Notes under the pieces: generated by a model | What the model was told of the DNA's origin: nothing | The model's database searches: none | The model's input: the letters and a program-made list of their open reading frames with translations, nothing else | Assembly (NCBI RefSeq): GCF_965641715.1 | Contig: NZ_OZ282453.1 | Source: Escherichia coli | GTDB taxonomy: Bacteria; Pseudomonadota; Gammaproteobacteria; Enterobacterales; Enterobacteriaceae | DNA: 64,000 nt | Direction: 5' to 3' (one strand) | Position numbers and translations under genes: made by a program | Shown here: piece by piece, positions 11,008 through 22,121 of the stretch | Position numbering within the stretch: position 1 is the first letter of the stretch | How the letters are laid out: each line of letters begins with the position of its first letter

Positions 11008-11325
11008 TTAACCAATTTTCCTTTCGGATGGGGGTAAATCCGTTGGTTCTTGCCCATAGTGTGCGAGAGCCGGAGCTATCTGCCCGGATTCAGGCGCAAT
11101 TTTTCCAGTCATAAACCACAACGCATATTTCTCAAATCTGGGGTTGTTTAGTATTTGCTCAATTACTTCAGCATTAGGGATAGTTTTACCGCTTTCATAT
11201 CTCCACAGAGCATCACGGTTTAAACCAAGCATTTTTGCTGTATCCGGGAGGCTAGTAAGTCTCTCGCTTTCACGCATGATTTTTATGCGCTCTCCAATAG
11301 TCATACGCATGTTGCAATTCTCCAA
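11008..11325 (-). CDS. P2 C-type immunity repressor
   Basis: About 100 aa with HTH and C-terminal WFMTGKIAPESGQIAPALAHYGQ, resembling P2 repressor C as recalled; divergent from the early operon. Confidence 0.8.
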   Translation of the reverse strand: MENCNMRMTIGERIKIMRESERLTSLPDTAKMLGLNRDALWRYESGKTIPNAEVIEQILNNPRFEKYALWFMTGKIAPESGQIAPALAHYGQEPTDLPPSERKIG

Positions 11326-11405
11326 CGTCTGTATTAATGTTTATACAAATGAGTTTGATTTGGGGCATCCGTCGCAAGAAATACCCCAAACAGGGAGATT
11401 ATCAC

Positions 11406-11732
11406 ATGAATGAAGAACTATTGAGGGCATTGTTTAAGATCCCAGACCCCATCACCGTCGATGAGTTTTCCCGCCGCACAGGTAAGACCGAATCAGCCGT
11501 AAGAAAGTTGGTAGAGCGTCGACTCATCCCTCTAACTACTGAGCGCGAGGTTTTAGGCGAGGAAGGGAGTTCGCGCCGTCTTCTCATCCTTTGGAATGAG
11601 TGGCTCGAAATGGTCTATGACGCAACGAAACAGCTTCCTCCTGAGCGTAAAGATTGGCGCAATCACTGGCTGAAGAAAGCCAAGAAGCTGGCGGAAGATT
11701 TGGGATTAGGTTTTCTTAATTTTGCTGCATGA
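11406..11732 (+). CDS. Putative Cox/Apl-like excisionase-regulator (first early gene)
   Basis: Position and orientation match P2 cox; small basic protein with a predicted DNA-binding fold. Start at internal ATG 11406; sequence similarity to Cox not established. Confidence 0.45.
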   Translation: MNEELLRALFKIPDPITVDEFSRRTGKTESAVRKLVERRLIPLTTEREVLGEEGSSRRLLILWNEWLEMVYDATKQLPPERKDWRNHWLKKAKKLAEDLGLGFLNFAA

Positions 11733-11750
11733 GATGCAGGGAGTTTTGAT

Positions 11751-12092
11751 ATGAAACAGCAACGTAATTCACGCTTTCGTAATGGCGCTGAACGCCACGC
11801 TAACCGTTTCGCTACCAGCGCATCACGCAGCAACATCCGCTACAGCCTGAGTGATACACACGCAACGCCGGATGGCTACCCAGTAAAACAAATCGGCGAG
11901 CATGCCTGGCTGATTGAAAAAGCTGGAATCGTGGTCCACAAATGCCCACGCAATCCGTTTACCGGAAACCGCATTTTTGCATTGAGCTGCGGCGACAATC
12001 AGTTCGGGCAGGATTTCACATTGTACGAAGCGCTACGCACGGTTGATCGTCTGCTCCGCGGACAAAGTTTTATTAAACAGGCTGATTTATAA
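11751..12092 (+). CDS. Hypothetical early protein
   Basis: 113-aa ORF with RBS in the early operon; no recognised family. Confidence 0.5.
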   Translation: MKQQRNSRFRNGAERHANRFATSASRSNIRYSLSDTHATPDGYPVKQIGEHAWLIEKAGIVVHKCPRNPFTGNRIFALSCGDNQFGQDFTLYEALRTVDRLLRGQSFIKQADL

Positions 12093-12102
12093 CAGGTGCT
12101 TT

Positions 12103-12390
12103 ATGACCAAAGACCATGCACAAGGTGTATTTATCCGTTTTATTGATTTTCGCGGTGAACTGTTATTACGCGCATCCGCTATTGATGGAGTGGCTCCGGC
12201 GGGTAAAAACGGAGCCGACGAAGCCACTTACGTTTATCTGAACGGCACGCGACTGCTTGTGGAACTTCCGTACCAGACCGTACGAGAAATCATTAGCAAA
12301 GCTGAAAAAGCGCGCCAGGCTAATGGCAATGAACCCTATATCGAAATTATTTGCATGGATTCAGAAGCTGAAATCCAGAAAGCAGATTAA
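12103..12390 (+). CDS. Hypothetical early protein
   Basis: About 95-aa ORF from internal ATG 12103; tightly packed in the early operon. Confidence 0.45.
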   Translation: MTKDHAQGVFIRFIDFRGELLLRASAIDGVAPAGKNGADEATYVYLNGTRLLVELPYQTVREIISKAEKARQANGNEPYIEIICMDSEAEIQKAD

Positions 12391-17945: not shown

Positions 17946-18905
17946 ATGAAAATTTGTATCGACGACGGCTCCACCAACATCAAGCTGGCATGGACTGAGA
18001 ACGGCGAACGCCGCAACGCCATCAGCCCGAACAGCTTCAAGTCGGAATGGTCTGCGCCGTTCGGTGGCTCGCAGCCCGCGAACTACATGCTTGATGGCGT
18101 GCGCTATGGTTTTGATCCGGTCAGCGATCGCTTTGTCCAGACGACCGACACGCAATACCAGTACAGCGATGTGAATGTCATTGCCATTCATCACGCGCTG
18201 GTCAAATCAGGCATCACGCCACAGGAGGTGGATGTGGTTGTCACCCTGCCATTGAGCGAGTATTTCGACACAAACGCACAGCCGGACATGGCCAACATCA
18301 GCCGCAAAAAAGCGAACGTTATGCGCCCGGTGGAGTACCAGAACGGCGAAACATTCACTATCCGTAACGTACGGGTTATGCCTGAATCCATTCCGGCTGG
18401 CTTTAAAGCACTGGCTGACATGAGTCCGCTTGAATCCCTGCTGATTGTGGATTTGGGCGGAACCACACTGGATGTGGCAAAGGTTCAGGGGCAACTGGCA
18501 GGTATCAGCCAGGTGTTTTGCGATCCACACGTAGGCGTTTCCCTGATGGCCGATGCCGTACTGTCGGTGATGGCCACTAACGGTATGCGTATCAGTCACC
18601 ACATCGCCAATACCATTATCGAACATCGCCATGATGAAGCCTGGTTGCGCCAGCACATCCACAATGACGCGCATTACGCCAGCCTGATGGCGGTTATTCG
18701 TGAAAAGGAAGAAACACTGAAACAACGCGTGATCCGCGCGCTGGCGGTTTTTTCGGGTTACGGGCGGGTGATGGTTGTCGGTGGCGGGGCGGAGATTGTG
18801 GCACCCGCTATCCGCGAAGCCTGCGGAGTTAATGCGACTTTCATCGCGGACGGGGTGCCACAGTTTGCTCTGGTTAATGGGCTGTACGCAATGGACAAGG
18901 AGTAA
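17946..18905 (+). CDS. ParM/StbA-like actin-type segregation ATPase
   Basis: N-terminus MKICIDDGSTNIKLAW... and later ...YSDVNVIAIHHAL... closely resemble plasmid R1 ParM (MLVFIDDGSTNIKLQW...YSDVNVVAVHHAL) as recalled. Confidence 0.85.
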   Translation: MKICIDDGSTNIKLAWTENGERRNAISPNSFKSEWSAPFGGSQPANYMLDGVRYGFDPVSDRFVQTTDTQYQYSDVNVIAIHHALVKSGITPQEVDVVVTLPLSEYFDTNAQPDMANISRKKANVMRPVEYQNGETFTIRNVRVMPESIPAGFKALADMSPLESLLIVDLGGTTLDVAKVQGQLAGISQVFCDPHVGVSLMADAVLSVMATNGMRISHHIANTIIEHRHDEAWLRQHIHNDAHYASLMAVIREKEETLKQRVIRALAVFSGYGRVMVVGGGAEIVAPAIREACGVNATFIADGVPQFALVNGLYAMDKE

Positions 18906-18909
18906 ACCA

Positions 18910-19221
18910 ATGACGACTCCAACCAGACGGATAAGTTTCTATCTGAAGCCCGCCGCCGTCAAGAACGAAGGTGAAGCATGCGCCTGGCTGGACAGCCTTA
19001 CACCAGAAGCGCGCAAAAGCGGCCAACGCGTGGCTTTTCTGGCCGGGCTGGCACTTCTGAAAATGAATCCGGCAGAGGCTTACCGACTGGCTGCATGGGC
19101 TGATGATGAAGCGTTATCAGTGACACAAACCAGGACAGAACGCCCCGCGTCACAGCCAGTATCAACCGCACAGATAACCAGTCAGATGGCCGGAAATATC
19201 CGGGCGTTATTTCCCGAATAA
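18910..19221 (+). CDS. ParR/StbB-like centromere-binding adaptor
   Basis: 103 aa from ATG 18910 (AAGGAG RBS); RRISFYLKP...LDSLTPEARKSGQRVAFLAGLAL and C-terminal NIRALFPE parallel R1 ParR; 4 nt after the ParM stop. Confidence 0.7.
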   Translation: MTTPTRRISFYLKPAAVKNEGEACAWLDSLTPEARKSGQRVAFLAGLALLKMNPAEAYRLAAWADDEALSVTQTRTERPASQPVSTAQITSQMAGNIRALFPE

Positions 19222-19284
19222 CACAACATCAGGGCGCATCCGCCCTGATGACTTTAACCCGGGAACATAAACAAGGGGGACACA

Positions 19285-19620
19285 ATGCAACGCATTGACA
19301 GAGAAAAAGCGCAGCGACTGATTGAGCGGATGGAAGCGCTGGCGAAAGAAGAAAATGTCAACATCCAAAAAATAGCTGAATGTGGCCAGATAGTTCTTCG
19401 TCGTGAAAAAGACCTCAAACAACTGATGTCTGGCGAAACCAGCAAAACATGGACTTCAGGTGAGGAGACGATTTATTGCAGCTTCTGCAATAAATCCCAG
19501 TACGAAGTCACAAAGGTGATTGCCGGACCGTCTGTTTACATCTGCAATGAGTGCGTTGATTTGTGCAATGAAGTTATCAGGAGAGAAGTGACAGACCATG
19601 AAGAAAAAACGCATGAATGA
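19285..19620 (+). CDS. Protein with C-terminal ClpX-type C4 zinc-binding domain
   Basis: C-terminal [39 protein letters not shown] is near-identical to the ClpX N-domain as recalled; N-terminal ~65 aa unrelated and helical. Confidence 0.75.
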
Positions 19621-19786
19621 CGAATTTGACGGCTTTTAATTTTATCGGGGCGCACTGTCGCCCTGCATGGAGAAAAACAATAAAAAAGATGAATAACTGC
19701 TCATGTCAGACGCGCTGCGGGCAAGTCTGGCACCCTGCCCTGTCTCCGCAAAGGCTGTTGTCTTAACACGACAGAGTATGCCAGCA

Positions 19787-20194
19787 TTAAATATAATCTT
19801 CTTCGTAGTCGCTGATTAATTCATTGCCATAATCAGACAGCAATTTCAAAGCAAAGGTAACTTCCTCAAGGGTAGCTATCCCCATTGCTGAAAACACCGT
19901 TAATTTAACCAGCAGCAGGGAGTTTGAAAGTTCGGAAGAGTTCATCATTAAAAATATTGATGCAGCCTGAAAAGCTGTGCGTTTATTCCCATCATGAAAG
20001 GCATGAGCCTTGGCTATACCAATCAAATACATAGCAGCCAGAGCATGAATATCATCAACCCCTTCATAGTAGTGTAGTGTCCTGACGCGATTTAAAGCAC
20101 CTTCAAGTAGCCCGTCATTGGCATTTCCGCTCTGGGGTAAAGTTTCAGCATGGATACGTTCTACTTGTTCTTTTGACAAAAACACTATGTCCAT
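19787..20194 (-). CDS. Doc-family (Fic-fold) toxin
   Basis: 135 aa with Fic/Doc active-site motif HAFHDGNKRTAF; downstream of and overlapping the antitoxin gene. Confidence 0.8.
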   Translation of the reverse strand: MDIVFLSKEQVERIHAETLPQSGNANDGLLEGALNRVRTLHYYEGVDDIHALAAMYLIGIAKAHAFHDGNKRTAFQAASIFLMMNSSELSNSLLLVKLTVFSAMGIATLEEVTFALKLLSDYGNELISDYEEDYI

Positions 20195-20550
20195 CAGTTA
20201 TCCTCAAGCTTTTTAATGATATCCGCATGTTTTTCTCTTGTACGCTTCATTGCATCTTCAAAAGACAATCCTTTTTTTCTCTGTGCGACAAGAGCTGGAT
20301 GACGTTTTTCCAGATCTCTCACTGCATTTATTAAGAGTGGTTGCTTCATTTTGTTTATTTGATCCCGCAGTTTTTTGGTTTTGCCAAGGACAGCCCGTAT
20401 TTCAGGACTAAGATCAGAACCAGCAAGAACAACATCCTTCCCTCCCTGCGCCGTGATAACGACACTGCCACCGGAAGAAAGGTAATCCAGAATTTCACTC
20501 AGGTTCTCACGAAATTCATCATCAGTTACAGTTTTCATATTCATTTCCAT
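20194..20550 (-). CDS. Phd/YefM-like antitoxin with C-terminal extension
   Basis: N-terminus ...MKTVTDDEFRENLSEILDYL...VVITAQGGKDVVLA fits the Phd/YefM pattern; stop overlaps the Doc start. Confidence 0.65.
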   Translation of the reverse strand: MEMNMKTVTDDEFRENLSEILDYLSSGGSVVITAQGGKDVVLAGSDLSPEIRAVLGKTKKLRDQINKMKQPLLINAVRDLEKRHPALVAQRKKGLSFEDAMKRTREKHADIIKKLEDN

Positions 20551-20624
20551 TATGCACGCCCATAACGTAAGTATAACGGCTTGTTGGGCAGTAATAACAC
20601 CGCCATATTTTCATTTTATACACC

Positions 20625-20650
20625 GCACAATAGTGCACAAATTTGCACAA
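20625..20650 (-). promoter_or_regulatory. Putative operator of the phd-doc promoter
   Basis: Three GCACAA hexamers at 10-bp phasing (20625, 20635, 20645) overlapping -10/-35-like elements upstream of the antitoxin gene. Confidence 0.4.
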
Positions 20651-21074
20651 TTTTTTTGAACAACTTTTTACCCTTCCGGCCCGCGTGGCGACTGGATCCG
20701 TCAAGGATCCGTGCGTGCACAAAAAAACGCGTTTTTTCTGCGCGCAGGTGACGGGGGAACAGCCCGCGTTTCAGGGGGTAAATAGCATTCCCTGAACGAT
20801 GTCGCAGCGACACAACAGAATGGCTGTATTTCTCACACTGAGCGTGAAAAAGGCGTGAGGGCTTTTGATTTGATGGGGTGACAGATAAGGCCGTCAAAAT
20901 CGCACTGAGGCGGCAAGAACATGCAGTCAACGCGGTGGGATTGCGTAAGAGCCTGACCGTCGATGATGGCGATAAGCTGGAAGACGTCGTGAAATTATCT
21001 GATTGATACAGGAGCTGGAGAGTCGGGGCATAAATTTTTTATGCCCCGGCGAAGCAGCAGACAAGCGAAGCGCG

Positions 21075-22121
21075 TCAGGATGTGGGCTGGGTGTCCAGCA
21101 GTGCGTAAGGGTTAAAGCGGATCACCTCTTCGCCAAGCCAGTCATTGATATGCTTCATGGCCTCCATGACGGGCATCAGCTCGTTAATTGCGTAAACCCG
21201 CGCTGCCTTCTCCACATCACCAAACGCACTTTTTTCGCCCGGCATCGCCCCCATCAGTTGCGGCGGAACGCGGTGCGCAGCCAGCACATCATCACGGGAT
21301 GCCGCCTTAACATTCATGAACTCATCCTTTGCGGTGATCTGCTGGAACGGCAAAATTTGCACACCTTCTTTGCCCCCGTTGGGCGCGTGAATGAGCACGT
21401 TTTTAAATGCACCACCACCACGCGCACCCTGTAGCGTTTCCTTCAGGGAGTCCATGCTTTCGCGGTTTACCTGCGCTGCACCGATGTAGATGATGCACCC
21501 GGCGTGGGATCCATTGTCGTAGTACAGTTTTCTGAACATGTCCGCCGAATGAGACAGGCTGGCCGAGAGTAATGCGCCAAGATATTCCGGCATGCCGTAA
21601 ATTTCCTGGTTAATGTCCGGATTCATCAGGTGGCACACTTTGCCAGGGCGAAACTGAAACGCGTCCTTGCCATCCTGCACATACCACCATGATTCAAGAT
21701 CGCTTCCGCGTCGCATGTATTTCGCCAGTGCGTGCCGTAATTTAAGTGGTTCGCCGAGCATATTGCTCCGAAGCTCAAGGAATGCGTTACCGAACACAAA
21801 CCAGTCCAGCGCCAGCGCCGAGAAATCCTGCCGGGAAAGCAGCGGGTGCGGGATGTAGCAACCGAGCAATACATTGCGCTTAAAGTAAAGCGCAGACTGA
21901 TGCCAGGACGTTTGCCGGGCGGCTCTTGCCAGACCGTACCAGTCCACCGGGGTTTCATACCACCGCCCGTTATCAGCACAGTACATATTGTCCAGCAGGT
22001 CATGCCCGGTCAGGCGGTAAGGACCATCAAATGTGAATGCACTGAGCGACGATTCTTTCCTGAGCGCATCAGCGAGATCAATGCGTGAACTCATGCGCAC
22101 TTTTTTATTTTTTCTGCTCAT
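21075..22121 (-). CDS. Portal protein (P2 gpQ-like)
   Basis: 348 aa, co-oriented and overlapping with the large terminase gene as in the P2 Q-P operon. Confidence 0.85.
   Translation of the reverse strand: MSRKNKKVRMSSRIDLADALRKESSLSAFTFDGPYRLTGHDLLDNMYCADNGRWYETPVDWYGLARAARQTSWHQSALYFKRNVLLGCYIPHPLLSRQDFSALALDWFVFGNAFLELRSNMLGEPLKLRHALAKYMRRGSDLESWWYVQDGKDAFQFRPGKVCHLMNPDINQEIYGMPEYLGALLSASLSHSADMFRKLYYDNGSHAGCIIYIGAAQVNRESMDSLKETLQGARGGGAFKNVLIHAPNGGKEGVQILPFQQITAKDEFMNVKAASRDDVLAAHRVPPQLMGAMPGEKSAFGDVEKAARVYAINELMPVMEAMKHINDWLGEEVIRFNPYALLDTQPTS

What the first reader, a model, noticed from the sequence alone, without database searches (positions are those of the whole stretch)
19787..20660. 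Phd/Doc toxin-antitoxin pair with a phased triple-hexamer operator
A Doc toxin with the Fic-type motif HAFHDGNKRTAF is preceded by a Phd/YefM-like antitoxin of unusual length (118 aa) with overlapping stop and start. Upstream, GCACAA occurs three times at exact 10-bp spacing over a -10/-35-like region, as expected for an autoregulated TA promoter. Such modules in prophages can stabilise the prophage or act in abortive infection.
Basis: partly seen in the sequence, partly recalled or inferred. Interest (0 to 1): 0.5.

Follow-up and report, generated by a model that had tools for sequence, protein, structure and literature searches.

The report
Phd/Doc pair beside phage cos site
This is a real but already-annotated Phd/Doc toxin-antitoxin pair carried as swappable cargo in a P2-family prophage, and the three "operator" hexamers upstream belong to the phage's conserved DNA-packaging (cos) arm, not to the toxin-antitoxin genes.

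Summary
**Observation.** Doc is 19787-20194 and has the motif HAFHDGNKRTAF. The Phd-like antitoxin ends at 20194 and overlaps the doc start as TGATG. GCACAA occurs at 20625, 20635 and 20645.

**TA reading: supported and ordinary.**
- RefSeq already annotates both genes.
- Rousset et al. 2022 list this exact locus among P2 defence-hotspot cargoes.
- The antitoxin most likely starts at 20538 (114 aa, not 118). It belongs to a small long-Phd subfamily found in P2-family hotspots.

**Operator reading: not supported.**
- Homology among P88-like phages with different cargo begins exactly at the first hexamer.
- The triplet occurs on about 100 sampled viral contigs, at a fixed distance from the portal gene. 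Only 2 of them carry this TA.
- About 1,100 E. coli genomes carry the backbone; 19 carry the TA.
- P2, 186 and satellite P4 have TGCAT copies at the same distances from their cohesive ends.
- TA relatives elsewhere lack the triplet.

The triplet is therefore the outermost conserved element of the cos arm and probably a packaging signal. The TA has its own conserved promoter inside the cassette: TTATTA, 16 nt, TATACT.

The parts
19787..20194 (-). doc: Doc-family (Fic-fold) toxin, 135 aa, motif H64-x-F-x-D68-G-N70-K71-R72
   Evidence: ORF. Pfam PF02661 3.5e-11. TIGR01550 above its cutoff. phrog_577 2.9e-26. P1 Doc 3k33_A 6e-13 with HIFNDANKRTA aligned to HAFHDGNKRTA. RefSeq WP_001561009.
20194..20538 (-). 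Long Phd-like antitoxin, 114 aa (alternative upstream ATGs at 20544 and 20550 would give 116 or 118 aa). It has an N-terminal Phd/YefM DNA-binding fold, a variable helical middle and an invariant C-terminal tail LSFEDAMKRTREKHA-IIK-LEDN.
   Evidence: ORF. RefSeq start, WP_001561011. Family alignment A3. AF2 model at pLDDT 72. Foldseek top hits are P1 Phd and YefM, with 4zlx_A at rmsd 0.9 over 41 columns. Pfam PF02604 scores 29.2 bits, just under the 29.8 cutoff.
20544..20548 (-). Shine-Dalgarno-like GGAAA, 5 nt before the ATG at 20538
   Evidence: Part of the block TGGAAAC..ATGAAAAC, conserved in the eight cos-adjacent loci.
20570..20597 (-). Predicted promoter of the TA cassette: -35 TTATTA (20597-20592), 16-nt spacer, -10 TATACT (20575-20570). 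It is overlapped by GTTAT boxes at 20598-20594, 20577-20573 and 20566-20562, which are the candidate operator.
   Evidence: Conserved in all eight cos-adjacent loci of this TA subfamily, although the antitoxin is only 53-64% identical: -10 is TATACT, TACATT or TATAAT; -35 is TTATTA, TTGTTA or TTATGA; the spacer is 15-16 nt. The transcription start is not mapped, so this is inference.
20603..20624 (-). A/T-rich cassette end (GGTGTATAAAATGAAAATATGG). It is either an UP-like element for the promoter above, or the -10 (TAAAAT, 20618-20613) of a hybrid promoter whose -35 would be the middle hexamer.
   Evidence: Sequence. Only partly conserved among homologues (TAAAAT, TAAAAC, TGAAAC, CAAAAC). The cargo/backbone breakpoint lies at 20624/20625.
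20625..20650 (.). Three GCACAA hexamers (TTGTGC on the gene strand) at exact 10-bp phase. This is the outermost conserved element of the cos right arm and the boundary of the cargo hotspot, and is the probable packaging-recognition repeat.
   Evidence: Same geometry as TGCAT x3 in P2, 186 and P4.
20717..20722 (.). Fourth GCACAA copy, cos-proximal (about -30 from the cohesive-end-like core). It lies inside the hairpin 20712-20746.
   Evidence: P2, 186 and P4 have a TGCAT at -29. Hairpin -16.9 kcal/mol, z -2.4.
20747..20765 (+). Putative 19-nt cohesive-end core GGTGACGGGGGAACAGCCC
   Evidence: 13 of 19 identical to the P2 cohesive end GGCGAGGCGGGGAAAGCAC. Same position and orientation relative to the portal gene as in P2. 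It is the best-conserved block of the intergenic region in divergent relatives. The cleavage site itself is inferred, not shown.
21075..22121 (-). Portal gene (gpQ homologue), the cos-side anchor of the hotspot
   Evidence: Pfam Phage_portal, RefSeq annotation.
19285..19620 (+). ClpX-type zinc-finger protein gene (context only). Homology with P88 ends at about its stop codon, which sets the left limit of the roughly 1-kb TA cassette (about 19621-20624).
   Evidence: Pfam PF06689 3.1e-17, alignment A7 with P88.

Best explanation
The window holds a P88-like (Xuanwuvirus, P2-family) prophage of E. coli. Its variable cargo slot lies between the replication/partition genes and the cos site. Here that slot carries a roughly 1-kb cassette (about 19621-20624) encoding a type II Phd/Doc toxin-antitoxin pair.

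**How the TA most likely works.**
- A cassette-internal sigma-70 promoter (TTATTA, 16 nt, TATACT) transcribes phd-doc away from cos. Translation of the two genes is coupled at TGATG.
- The antitoxin's N-terminal Phd/YefM domain dimerises and represses this promoter, probably at the GTTAT boxes over the -35, the -10 and the transcription start.
- Its invariant C-terminal tail binds and neutralises Doc.
- When the labile antitoxin is no longer replenished, free Doc phosphorylates EF-Tu and stops translation. Given the location, this would serve abortive defence against other phages or retention of the prophage.

**What the hexamers are.** They are not part of this circuit. They are the distal, phased TGCA(C/T) repeats of the P2-family cos right arm. 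They are the last backbone bases that every cargo swap must keep, and they most likely help terminase recognise or bend cos for packaging.

**Shown versus inferred.**
- Shown: gene content, folds and motifs, family distribution, the breakpoint, and the repeat geometry.
- Inferred: promoter use, the operator, toxicity, EF-Tu targeting, a defence role, and terminase binding.
For: **TA identity.** (Doc; antitoxin fold; conserved N-domain and C-tail; RefSeq annotation; this locus, with WP_001561011, in Table S5 of Rousset 2022).

**Hotspot context.**. Rousset 2022 define the P2 hotspot as lying between gpA and gpQ, next to cos.

**Triplet is backbone.**
- 1,105 of 5,426 E. coli genomes carry the segment; in the phage and plasmid hits it starts at about 20622-20625. 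Only 19 genomes carry the TA.
- Alignment of 7 phages with different cargo breaks 1-2 nt before the first hexamer.
- Of 121 exact triplet sites in IMG/VR, 86 have a homologous portal (68-100% identity) on the same side, mostly 355-430 nt away. Only 2 have this TA.
- 45 distinct cargo-side sequence clusters share the same boundary.

**Triplet is the cos arm.**
- TGCAT starts at -123/-124, -111, -101 and -29 from the cohesive end in P2, 186 and P4. In the window, (T/C)GCAC starts at -123, -113, -103 and -31 from the cos-like core.
- The repeat cores are the only invariant islands in the distal arm, although head proteins are just 33-49% identical to those of P2 and 186.
- P4 shares essentially only cos with P2.
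- Longer cos flanks improved cosmid transduction (PMC9594776).

**TA has its own control region.**
- Promoter block conserved in 8 loci.
- L137 (inverted) and the Arsenophonus plasmid relative lack the triplet and carry dyads instead: ATTACGT-N8-ACGTAAT and ATGTACATGTACAT.
- In L104 and L109 a canonical Phd/Doc sits beside the triplet with its 3' end facing it.

**Established knowledge.**
- Antitoxin operators in general are usually perfect or imperfect palindromes overlapping the promoter (PMC4803016).
- Solved P1 Phd-DNA complexes are on an operator inverted repeat (PDB 4zm0 and 4zm2).
- Doc phosphorylates EF-Tu Thr-382, and Phd's C-terminus folds on Doc (PMC4803016).
- P1's TGTGTACACA palindrome directly follows the -10 of Pphd.
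Against: - No transcription start, protein-DNA binding, toxicity or packaging data exist for this locus. All functional steps rest on homology and conservation.
- No clear palindrome was found in the conserved cassette promoter, so the operator is not identified.
- The antitoxin falls just below the curated Pfam and TIGRFAM cutoffs.
- The fusion model meant to test tail-Doc docking failed, with pLDDT 46.
- Eight of nine subfamily loci keep the same orientation, with a constant 22-24-nt gap between triplet and promoter block. Common descent explains this, but some functional coupling is not excluded.
- I could not retrieve the primary P2 cos paper. Whether the distal repeats are required for packaging is therefore unverified.
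Confidence: 0.78

Rival explanations
1. One reading: the three phased GCACAA/TTGTGC hexamers are the autoregulatory operator bound by the Phd-like antitoxin.
For: - They lie upstream of the operon and are non-random and phased.
- Eight cos-adjacent loci of this TA subfamily keep the triplet at a constant distance from the promoter block.
Against: - The triplet is present in about 1,100 E. coli genomes and about 100 sampled viral contigs that lack this TA, beside at least 45 other cargo types in either orientation.
- It is positionally homologous to the TGCAT repeats in P2, 186 and P4.
- It is absent upstream of the same TA subfamily in L137 and in the Arsenophonus plasmid.
- It lies about 62-87 nt upstream of the predicted transcription start.
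- Phd/YefM-fold antitoxins have been solved on inverted repeats at the promoter.
Confidence: 0.06
2. Hybrid-promoter model. The TA is transcribed wholly or partly from TTGTGC (middle hexamer, 20640-20635), 16 nt, TAAAAT (20618-20613). The cos-arm repeat then doubles as a -35, and proteins binding the cos arm (terminase during lytic growth) would modulate TA expression.
For: - The spacing fits.
- In P2 the annotated old-tin transcript starts (33424 and 33426) imply a -35 TTGAAT overlapping the distal TGCAT copy. Cargo promoters can therefore abut or overlap the cos repeats.
- The junction spacing is constant in 8 loci.
Against: - TTGTGC matches the -35 consensus at only 3 of 6 positions and was not called by the scan.
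- In most homologues the -10 is TAAAAC, TGAAAC or CAAAAC, which lack the key final T.
- The downstream TTATTA/TATACT promoter is far better conserved.
Confidence: 0.12
3. The triplet region is an intrinsic terminator (GTGCA-N6-TGCAC followed by T7 on the + strand). It would stop early or cargo transcription before it enters cos and the convergent portal gene.
For: - Flagged by the terminator scan.
- The T7 run is conserved in P88-like phages.
- In 186 a terminator (t95b) lies just outside the repeats.
Against: - The hairpin is weak: -6.1 kcal/mol, z -1.2, with 29 of 200 shuffles folding as well.
- The scan found 2 terminator-like sites against 1.8 expected.
- P2 has the repeats without a T run.
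- The model does not explain three phased copies plus a fourth at conserved distances from cos.
Confidence: 0.08
4. Functional rival for the TA. It acts only as a selfish addiction or prophage-stabilising module, as in P1, with no anti-phage role.
For: - The founding member, P1 Phd/Doc, is an addiction module.
- The prophage also carries parMR partition genes.
- Neither protein matches an established defence family in PADLOC. Only weak hits to candidate Fic-domain families were found.
Against: - The subfamily occurs almost only in the P2-family cos-proximal hotspot, where many cargoes were shown to be defence systems.
- An integrated prophage gains little from post-segregational killing.
Confidence: 0.4

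Closest known systems
Phd/Doc of phage P1 (type II TA; Doc is an EF-Tu Thr-382 kinase)
   Same: - Antitoxin-first operon with overlapping stop and start.
- Doc fold and the H-x-F-x-D-(A/G)-N-K-R motif.
- The antitoxin N-domain has the Phd fold.
- A conserved C-terminal segment is the likely toxin-binding element.
   Different: - Doc is only about 32% identical.
- The antitoxin is 114 aa against 73 aa, with an extra helical segment of about 40 aa and no significant sequence match to Phd in the PDB.
- No TGTGTACACA-type palindrome follows the -10.
- It sits in an integrated P2-family prophage, not a plasmid prophage.
YefM/YoeB and Axe/Txe-type operators (TGTACA palindromes)
   Same: - Same antitoxin DNA-binding fold.
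- The Arsenophonus relative of this TA has ATGTACATGTACAT at its promoter.
   Different: - The window's cassette has no TGTACA dyad.
- Its conserved elements are direct GTTAT boxes.
- The toxin is Doc, not a RelE-fold protein.
P2-family cos-proximal defence hotspot (old/tin in P2; Rousset et al. 2022)
   Same: - Same slot, between gpA and gpQ next to cos.
- This very locus is listed in their Table S5.
- As for P2 old, the cargo is transcribed away from cos from a promoter abutting the cos arm.
   Different: - Not among the systems discussed in the main text.
- No matching established defence family in PADLOC.
cos region of P2, 186 and P4 (55-bp core; Ziermann and Calendar 1990)
   Same: - A 19-nt cohesive-end-like core 13 of 19 identical to P2.
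- A proximal repeat copy at about -30.
- Three distal phased copies at about -100 to -125.
   Different: - The repeat is TGCAC(AA) rather than TGCAT, and the spacing is exactly 10/10 rather than 12-13/10.
- The head and terminase proteins are only 33-49% identical.
- The distal triplet lies outside the published 55-bp core. I could not find a description of its function.
Lambda cosB R sites (phased small-terminase binding sites beside cosN)
   Same: Several short repeats on one side of the nicking site, at about helical phase. This is a working analogy for how the triplet may act.
   Different: - No sequence or protein homology was tested or claimed.
- Binding of P2-family terminase to the repeats is not shown.

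Membership tests
Doc (death-on-curing) toxins, Fic fold | Profile match above the curated threshold | tested here: met
   Pfam PF02661: 44.2 bits against 24. TIGR01550 DOC_P1: 53.6 against 38.65. phrog_577 Doc-like toxin: 2.9e-26.
Doc (death-on-curing) toxins, Fic fold | Doc-type catalytic motif H-x-F-x-(D/N)-(A/G)-N-K-R | tested here: met
   H64-AFHDGNKR-72 aligns with P1 Doc HIFNDANKR. It is invariant in 10 subfamily members.
Doc (death-on-curing) toxins, Fic fold | Toxicity through phosphorylation of EF-Tu Thr-382 | not testable with these tools
   Known for P1 Doc (PMC4803016). Inferred here.
Phd/YefM antitoxins | Profile match above the curated threshold | tested here: not met
   Pfam PF02604: 29.2 bits against 29.8, covering residues 5-42 only. 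TIGR01552: 16.7 against 20.8. phrog_375 Phd-like antitoxin: 2.4e-4. This is a near miss, and only the N-domain matches.
Phd/YefM antitoxins | N-terminal beta-alpha-alpha-beta-beta DNA-binding and dimerisation fold | tested here: met
   AF2 model with N-domain pLDDT about 80. The top 40 Foldseek PDB hits are almost all Phd/YefM-fold antitoxins (P1 Phd, YefM, VapB46 N-domain, RelB), with 4zlx_A at rmsd 0.9 Å, 32% identity and TMt 0.81. hhalign to a canonical 73-aa Phd gives 66% probability over residues 1-45.
Phd/YefM antitoxins | C-terminal segment that binds and neutralises the toxin | tested here: inconclusive
   The invariant C-tail co-occurs with a highly conserved Doc. Similarity to the canonical Phd C-terminus of L104 is weak (12-27 of 500 shuffles score as high). 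The fusion model failed at pLDDT 46.
Phd/YefM antitoxins | Palindromic operator overlapping the operon's own promoter | tested here: inconclusive
   No dyad with arms of at least 6 bp in the 130 nt upstream of the eight cos-adjacent loci. L137 and Arsenophonus do have dyads. Conserved GTTAT boxes over the -35 and -10 are the only candidates.
Type II toxin-antitoxin operon | Antitoxin gene first, toxin second, adjacent or overlapping, and co-conserved as a pair | tested here: met
   TGATG overlap. The pair is conserved in 9 further loci.
P2-family cos-proximal hotspot cargo | Located between the replication gene gpA and the portal gene gpQ, adjacent to cos, and replaced by unrelated genes in sister phages | tested here: met
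   Definition in Rousset 2022. Locus listed in their Table S5.
P2-family cos-proximal hotspot cargo | Confers resistance to other phages | not testable with these tools
   No experimental report was found. PADLOC gives only weak hits to candidate families.
P2-family cos right-arm repeats (for the hexamer triplet) | Conserved position and phase relative to the cohesive end, independent of cargo | tested here: met
   Copies at -123, -113, -103 and -31, against -123/-124, -111, -101 and -29 in P2, 186 and P4. Invariant TGCA islands. Cargo-independent.
P2-family cos right-arm repeats (for the hexamer triplet) | Required for terminase recognition or packaging | not testable with these tools
   The primary literature was not retrievable. 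The indirect evidence is that longer cos flanks improve cosmid transduction.

The most novel reading that the evidence does not exclude
The long-Phd/Doc subfamily is a dedicated P2-family hotspot defence module whose expression is physically coupled to the packaging signal. Its promoter abuts the distal cos repeats at a fixed 22-24 nt. Terminase assembling on the cos arm, on prophage induction or on incoming related phage or satellite DNA, would then alter phd-doc transcription. That would release Doc to shut down translation, making this a TA that senses packaging. Separately, the distal TGCA(C/T) triplet would be a previously under-described, family-wide cosB-like element. It would set both packaging specificity and the exact recombination boundary of the defence hotspot.
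Probability: 0.07. Interest if true: 0.65.

Novelty: new member of a known kind. Interest (0 to 1): 0.27.

Why it matters
**The TA.** As a TA, this is routine. Both genes are already named by RefSeq, and the locus is already catalogued in the P2 hotspot survey.

**What this check adds.**
1. It is a correction. A neat phased repeat upstream of a TA is not necessarily its operator. Here it is the phage's own packaging arm.
2. It places the cargo/backbone breakpoint of the P2-family defence hotspot to within 1-2 nt, directly after the repeat triplet. That is useful for delimiting cargo automatically and for cloning 'native promoter' constructs without dragging in cos elements.
3. It shows that three distal repeats plus one proximal repeat keep the same geometry across P2, 186, P4 and the distantly related P88-like phages. 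This bears on cosmid and transducing-particle design and on helper-satellite packaging specificity.
4. It defines a small long-antitoxin Phd/Doc subfamily confined almost entirely to this hotspot. That makes it a reasonable candidate for anti-phage testing.

Tried and rejected
- **Generic promoter scan.** It called no promoter over the hexamers. Its only hit lies on the other strand, inside the 3' end of doc.
- **Terminator reading of the triplet.** The hairpin is weak and not better than shuffles.
- **ParR centromere reading.** parM is present in only 33 of 120 triplet loci, so the triplet does not depend on parMR. The single GCACAA upstream of parM is isolated.
- **Satellite test.** I looked for P4-like satellites carrying the TTGTGC triplet, which would prove a packaging role. 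None were among the sampled IMG/VR loci, so the test was uninformative.
- **Co-variation test.** Small terminase is not specially diverged against P2: 39% identity, against 33-49% for the other head proteins. The test does not discriminate.
- **Antitoxin-linker-Doc AF2 fusion.** Low confidence (pLDDT 46), unusable.
- **Sequence search of the antitoxin against the PDB.** Only spurious coiled-coil hits.
- **Dyad search in the conserved promoter block.** No perfect dyad in the cos-adjacent loci.
- **Literature.**
  - Ziermann and Calendar 1990 is not held.
  - Two keyword searches for P2 terminase-cos binding gave nothing specific. One further search was rejected for a too-short term.
  - No report of anti-phage activity for a P2-hotspot Phd/Doc was found.
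- **Rfam.** No family reached its threshold in 19200-21200. The only hit was a sub-threshold gyrA-RNA match at 21016-21069.
Full report
**1. What is in the sequence**

The pair lies on the minus strand.
- Doc is 19787-20194 (135 aa) and carries H64-AFHDGNKRTAF-75.
- The upstream ORF runs 20194-20550 (118 aa from the first ATG).
- Its TGA stop overlaps the doc ATG by one base (TGATG).
- On the + strand GCACAA occurs at 20625, 20635 and 20645, exactly 10 bp apart, with a fourth copy at 20717.

The whole 64-kb window has only 35 copies on both strands. A triplet at exact phase is expected about 2e-6 times by chance (my arithmetic).

**2. The genes**

Doc is an unambiguous Doc-family protein.
- Pfam Fic/DOC 3.5e-11.
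- TIGR01550 DOC_P1 at 53.6 bits, against a cutoff of 38.65.
- PHROG 'Doc-like toxin' 2.9e-26.
- P1 Doc crystal-structure sequences at 6e-13, with HIFNDANKRTA aligned to HAFHDGNKRTA.

The antitoxin is more divergent.
- Only residues 5-42 match Pfam PhdYeFM, at 29.2 bits against a 29.8 cutoff. TIGR01552 is also sub-threshold.
- It has no sequence match in the PDB.
- An AlphaFold2 model built on 16 homologues (pLDDT 72, N-domain about 80) gives beta-alpha-alpha-beta-beta followed by long helices.
- Foldseek returns P1 Phd and YefM N-domains as best hits. 4zlx_A matches at rmsd 0.9 Å over 41 columns, 32% identity.
- A homologue search found 19 clusters of about 111-119 aa, or longer where the start was called upstream, in Enterobacterales.
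- Their alignment shows an invariant N-terminus, a variable middle and an invariant C-terminal tail, LSFEDAMKRTREKHA-IIK-LEDN.
- The true start is most likely the ATG at 20538 (114 aa). RefSeq uses it. MKTVTD and a GGAAAC Shine-Dalgarno are conserved, and L012 has no ATG at the upstream in-frame positions.

**3. Where it sits**

The window is 100% identical to E. coli 96_1414B. The element is a P88-like (Xuanwuvirus, Peduoviridae) prophage. Its gene order is integrase, early genes, replication endonuclease, parM, parR, ClpX-zinc-finger gene, doc and phd (reverse strand), intergenic region, portal and large terminase (reverse strand), then the head genes.

This is the cos-proximal slot between gpA and gpQ that Rousset et al. 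2022 described as a hotspot of anti-phage systems. [quoted passage not shown] The main text does not discuss it.

In complete E. coli genomes the TA occurs in 19 of 5,426, all at least 99.8% identical. The nearest plasmid relative is in Arsenophonus (Doc 56% identical). P1 Doc is about 32% identical.

**4. The hexamers belong to the phage backbone**

- In all three collections the widely shared match to 19600-20900 starts at query position about 1023-1026, which is window 20622-20625. 1,105 E. coli genomes carry that segment and 19 carry the TA.
- An alignment of seven phages with unrelated cargo shows homology beginning 1-2 nt before the first GCACAA. It then continues through all three hexamers to the portal gene.
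  - Of 121 sites, 86 have a homologous portal gene (68-100% aa identity) on the same side. It is mostly 355-430 nt away, or about 1,000-1,050 nt where there is an insertion.
  - Only 2 sites carry this Phd/Doc.
- By a strict regex 92 sites have a cos-like core within 140 nt, and several more have it by eye.
- Taking one representative per cargo (45 cargo-side clusters), conservation runs up to and through the triplet and vanishes within 1-2 nt after it.

**5. What the hexamers are**

*Cohesive-end core.* The window has GGTGACGGGGGAACAGCCC at 20747-20765.
- It is 13 of 19 identical to the P2 cohesive end.
- It has the same orientation towards the portal gene as in P2.
- It is the best-conserved block in divergent relatives.

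*Repeat geometry.* Positions are measured from the first base of the cohesive end.

| Phage | Repeat | Start positions |
|---|---|---|
| P2 | TGCAT | -123, -111, -101, -29 |
| 186, P4 | TGCAT | -124, -111, -101, -29 |
| Window | (T/C)GCAC | -123, -113, -103, -31 |

*Conservation.*
- In a four-way alignment the repeat cores are the only invariant islands of the distal arm.
- The window's head proteins are only 33-49% identical to those of P2 and 186.
- P4 is packaged by P2 terminase and shares little with P2 except cos.

*Relation to the published core.* By my reading of the sequences, the published 55-bp core starts at the proximal copy, so the distal triplet lies outside it. One paper notes that longer cos flanks improve cosmid transduction.

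*Conclusion.* The triplet is the distal part of the cos right arm, most likely a recognition or bending element for terminase. Binding itself is inferred.

*Terminator reading.* This is weak: -6.1 kcal/mol, z -1.2.

**6. What controls the TA**

All nine further subfamily loci examined are in phage contexts.
- Seven show portal, intergenic region, phd, doc in the same orientation as the window. The eighth, L140, is cut at the contig end upstream of phd but keeps the cos arm and triplet.
- These cos-adjacent loci share a cassette-side block GTGTTATTA-N12-CGTTATACTTA. This reads as -35 TTATTA (20597-20592), a 16-nt spacer (15 nt in L012) and -10 TATACT (20575-20570).
- The block is followed by the conserved Shine-Dalgarno and start codon.
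- GTTAT recurs over the -35 and the -10 and just downstream, at spacings of 21 and 11 nt.
- The A/T-rich 22-24 nt between this block and the triplet is only partly conserved.
- The ninth locus, L137, is inverted. Its order is parM, parR, phd, doc.

Three natural controls argue against the triplet as operator.
- L137 has the TA inverted, with no triplet upstream and an ATTACGT-N8-ACGTAAT dyad instead.
- The Arsenophonus plasmid relative has an 84-aa antitoxin with the same tail motif. It has no triplet, and it has ATGTACATGTACAT at its promoter. That is the classical TGTACA-type site of this antitoxin fold.
- In L104 and L109 a canonical 73-aa Phd plus 127-aa Doc lies beside the same triplet, with the 3' end of doc facing it.

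In P1 the TGTGTACACA palindrome directly follows the -10. I found no clear palindrome in the window's promoter block, so the operator is still unidentified.

A hybrid promoter remains possible as a minor contributor: the middle hexamer as -35, then TAAAAT at 20618-20613. The P2 old-tin transcript starts imply a -35 overlapping the distal TGCAT copy there too.

**7. Mechanism**

The best-supported mechanism has five steps.
1. The cassette promoter drives phd-doc.
2. The Phd-fold N-domain autorepresses.
3. The invariant C-tail neutralises Doc.
4. Loss of antitoxin frees Doc to phosphorylate EF-Tu Thr-382 and arrest translation.
5. The hotspot location suggests an abortive-infection or exclusion role. 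A P1-like addiction role is the main functional rival.

The tail-Doc interaction could not be modelled because the fusion model reached only pLDDT 46. Similarity of the tail to a canonical Phd C-terminus is only suggestive. PADLOC has no established family for either protein.

**8. Verdict**

The TA interpretation is supported but already known at annotation and catalogue level. The operator interpretation is not supported: the hexamers are the cargo-independent distal repeats of the P2-family cos arm, and they mark the hotspot boundary. Overall this is a new, uncharacterised member of a known kind, and interest is low to moderate.

Noticed in passing
window 19285-19620 (+): A free-standing 111-aa protein made essentially of a ClpX C4 zinc finger (Pfam 3.1e-17; phrog_6797) lies convergent with doc. 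It also neighbours the TA in L011, occurs without the TA in P88, and is present in 7 of 120 triplet loci. P1 Phd is a ClpXP substrate, so a ClpX N-domain mimic next to a Phd/Doc pair could affect antitoxin turnover. This is untested.
   Followed up: partly
window 17946-19221 (+): A parM/parR actin-type partition system sits inside an integrated P2-family prophage, with the integrase at about window 11297-12289. It is present in 33 of 120 triplet-bearing viral loci. This suggests that some of these phages can also live as plasmids.
   Followed up: no
window 20694-20712: GGATCCGT is repeated twice, 11 bp apart, in the cos arm between the distal triplet and the proximal copy. It is conserved in all seven P88-like phages aligned. 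Function unknown.
   Followed up: no
window 20708-20750 (+): A strong hairpin or palindrome (-16.9 kcal/mol, z -2.4) contains the fourth GCACAA copy and abuts the cohesive-end-like core. P2 has a GC hairpin (CCGCCCCGTGAAGCGGGCGG) at the equivalent place.
   Followed up: partly
L104 and L109 (IMG/VR contigs): A second, canonical Phd/Doc pair (73-aa Phd, 127-aa Doc with HIFNDGNKRTAF) occupies the same hotspot in other P2-family phages, in the opposite orientation. Doc-type TAs have therefore entered this slot more than once.
   Followed up: partly
L013 (P2 NC_001895 33380-33593): The annotated old-tin transcript starts (33424 and 33426) imply a promoter TTGAAT, 17 nt, TAAAAA whose -35 overlaps the distal TGCAT cos repeat. 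In P2 itself, cargo expression and the packaging arm therefore share DNA.
   Followed up: partly
L137 3262-3612: In the one locus where this TA subfamily is inverted, doc is followed by a 116-aa ORF that overlaps the 3' end of the portal gene. No cos-like arm lies between them. This phage appears to organise its packaging site differently.
   Followed up: no
window 21016-21069 (+): A sub-threshold Rfam hit to gyrA RNA (22.2 bits against a gathering score of 45, E 0.019) lies just downstream of the portal stop codon. It is probably a chance match to a terminator-like hairpin.
   Followed up: no
alignment A6 (10 TA pairs): Within the subfamily the toxin looks much more conserved than the antitoxin. 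Antitoxin identity to the window is 53-68% apart from two close relatives, while the antitoxin-linker-Doc fusions are 69-80% identical. Only the antitoxin's extreme N-terminus and C-tail are invariant.
   Followed up: partly
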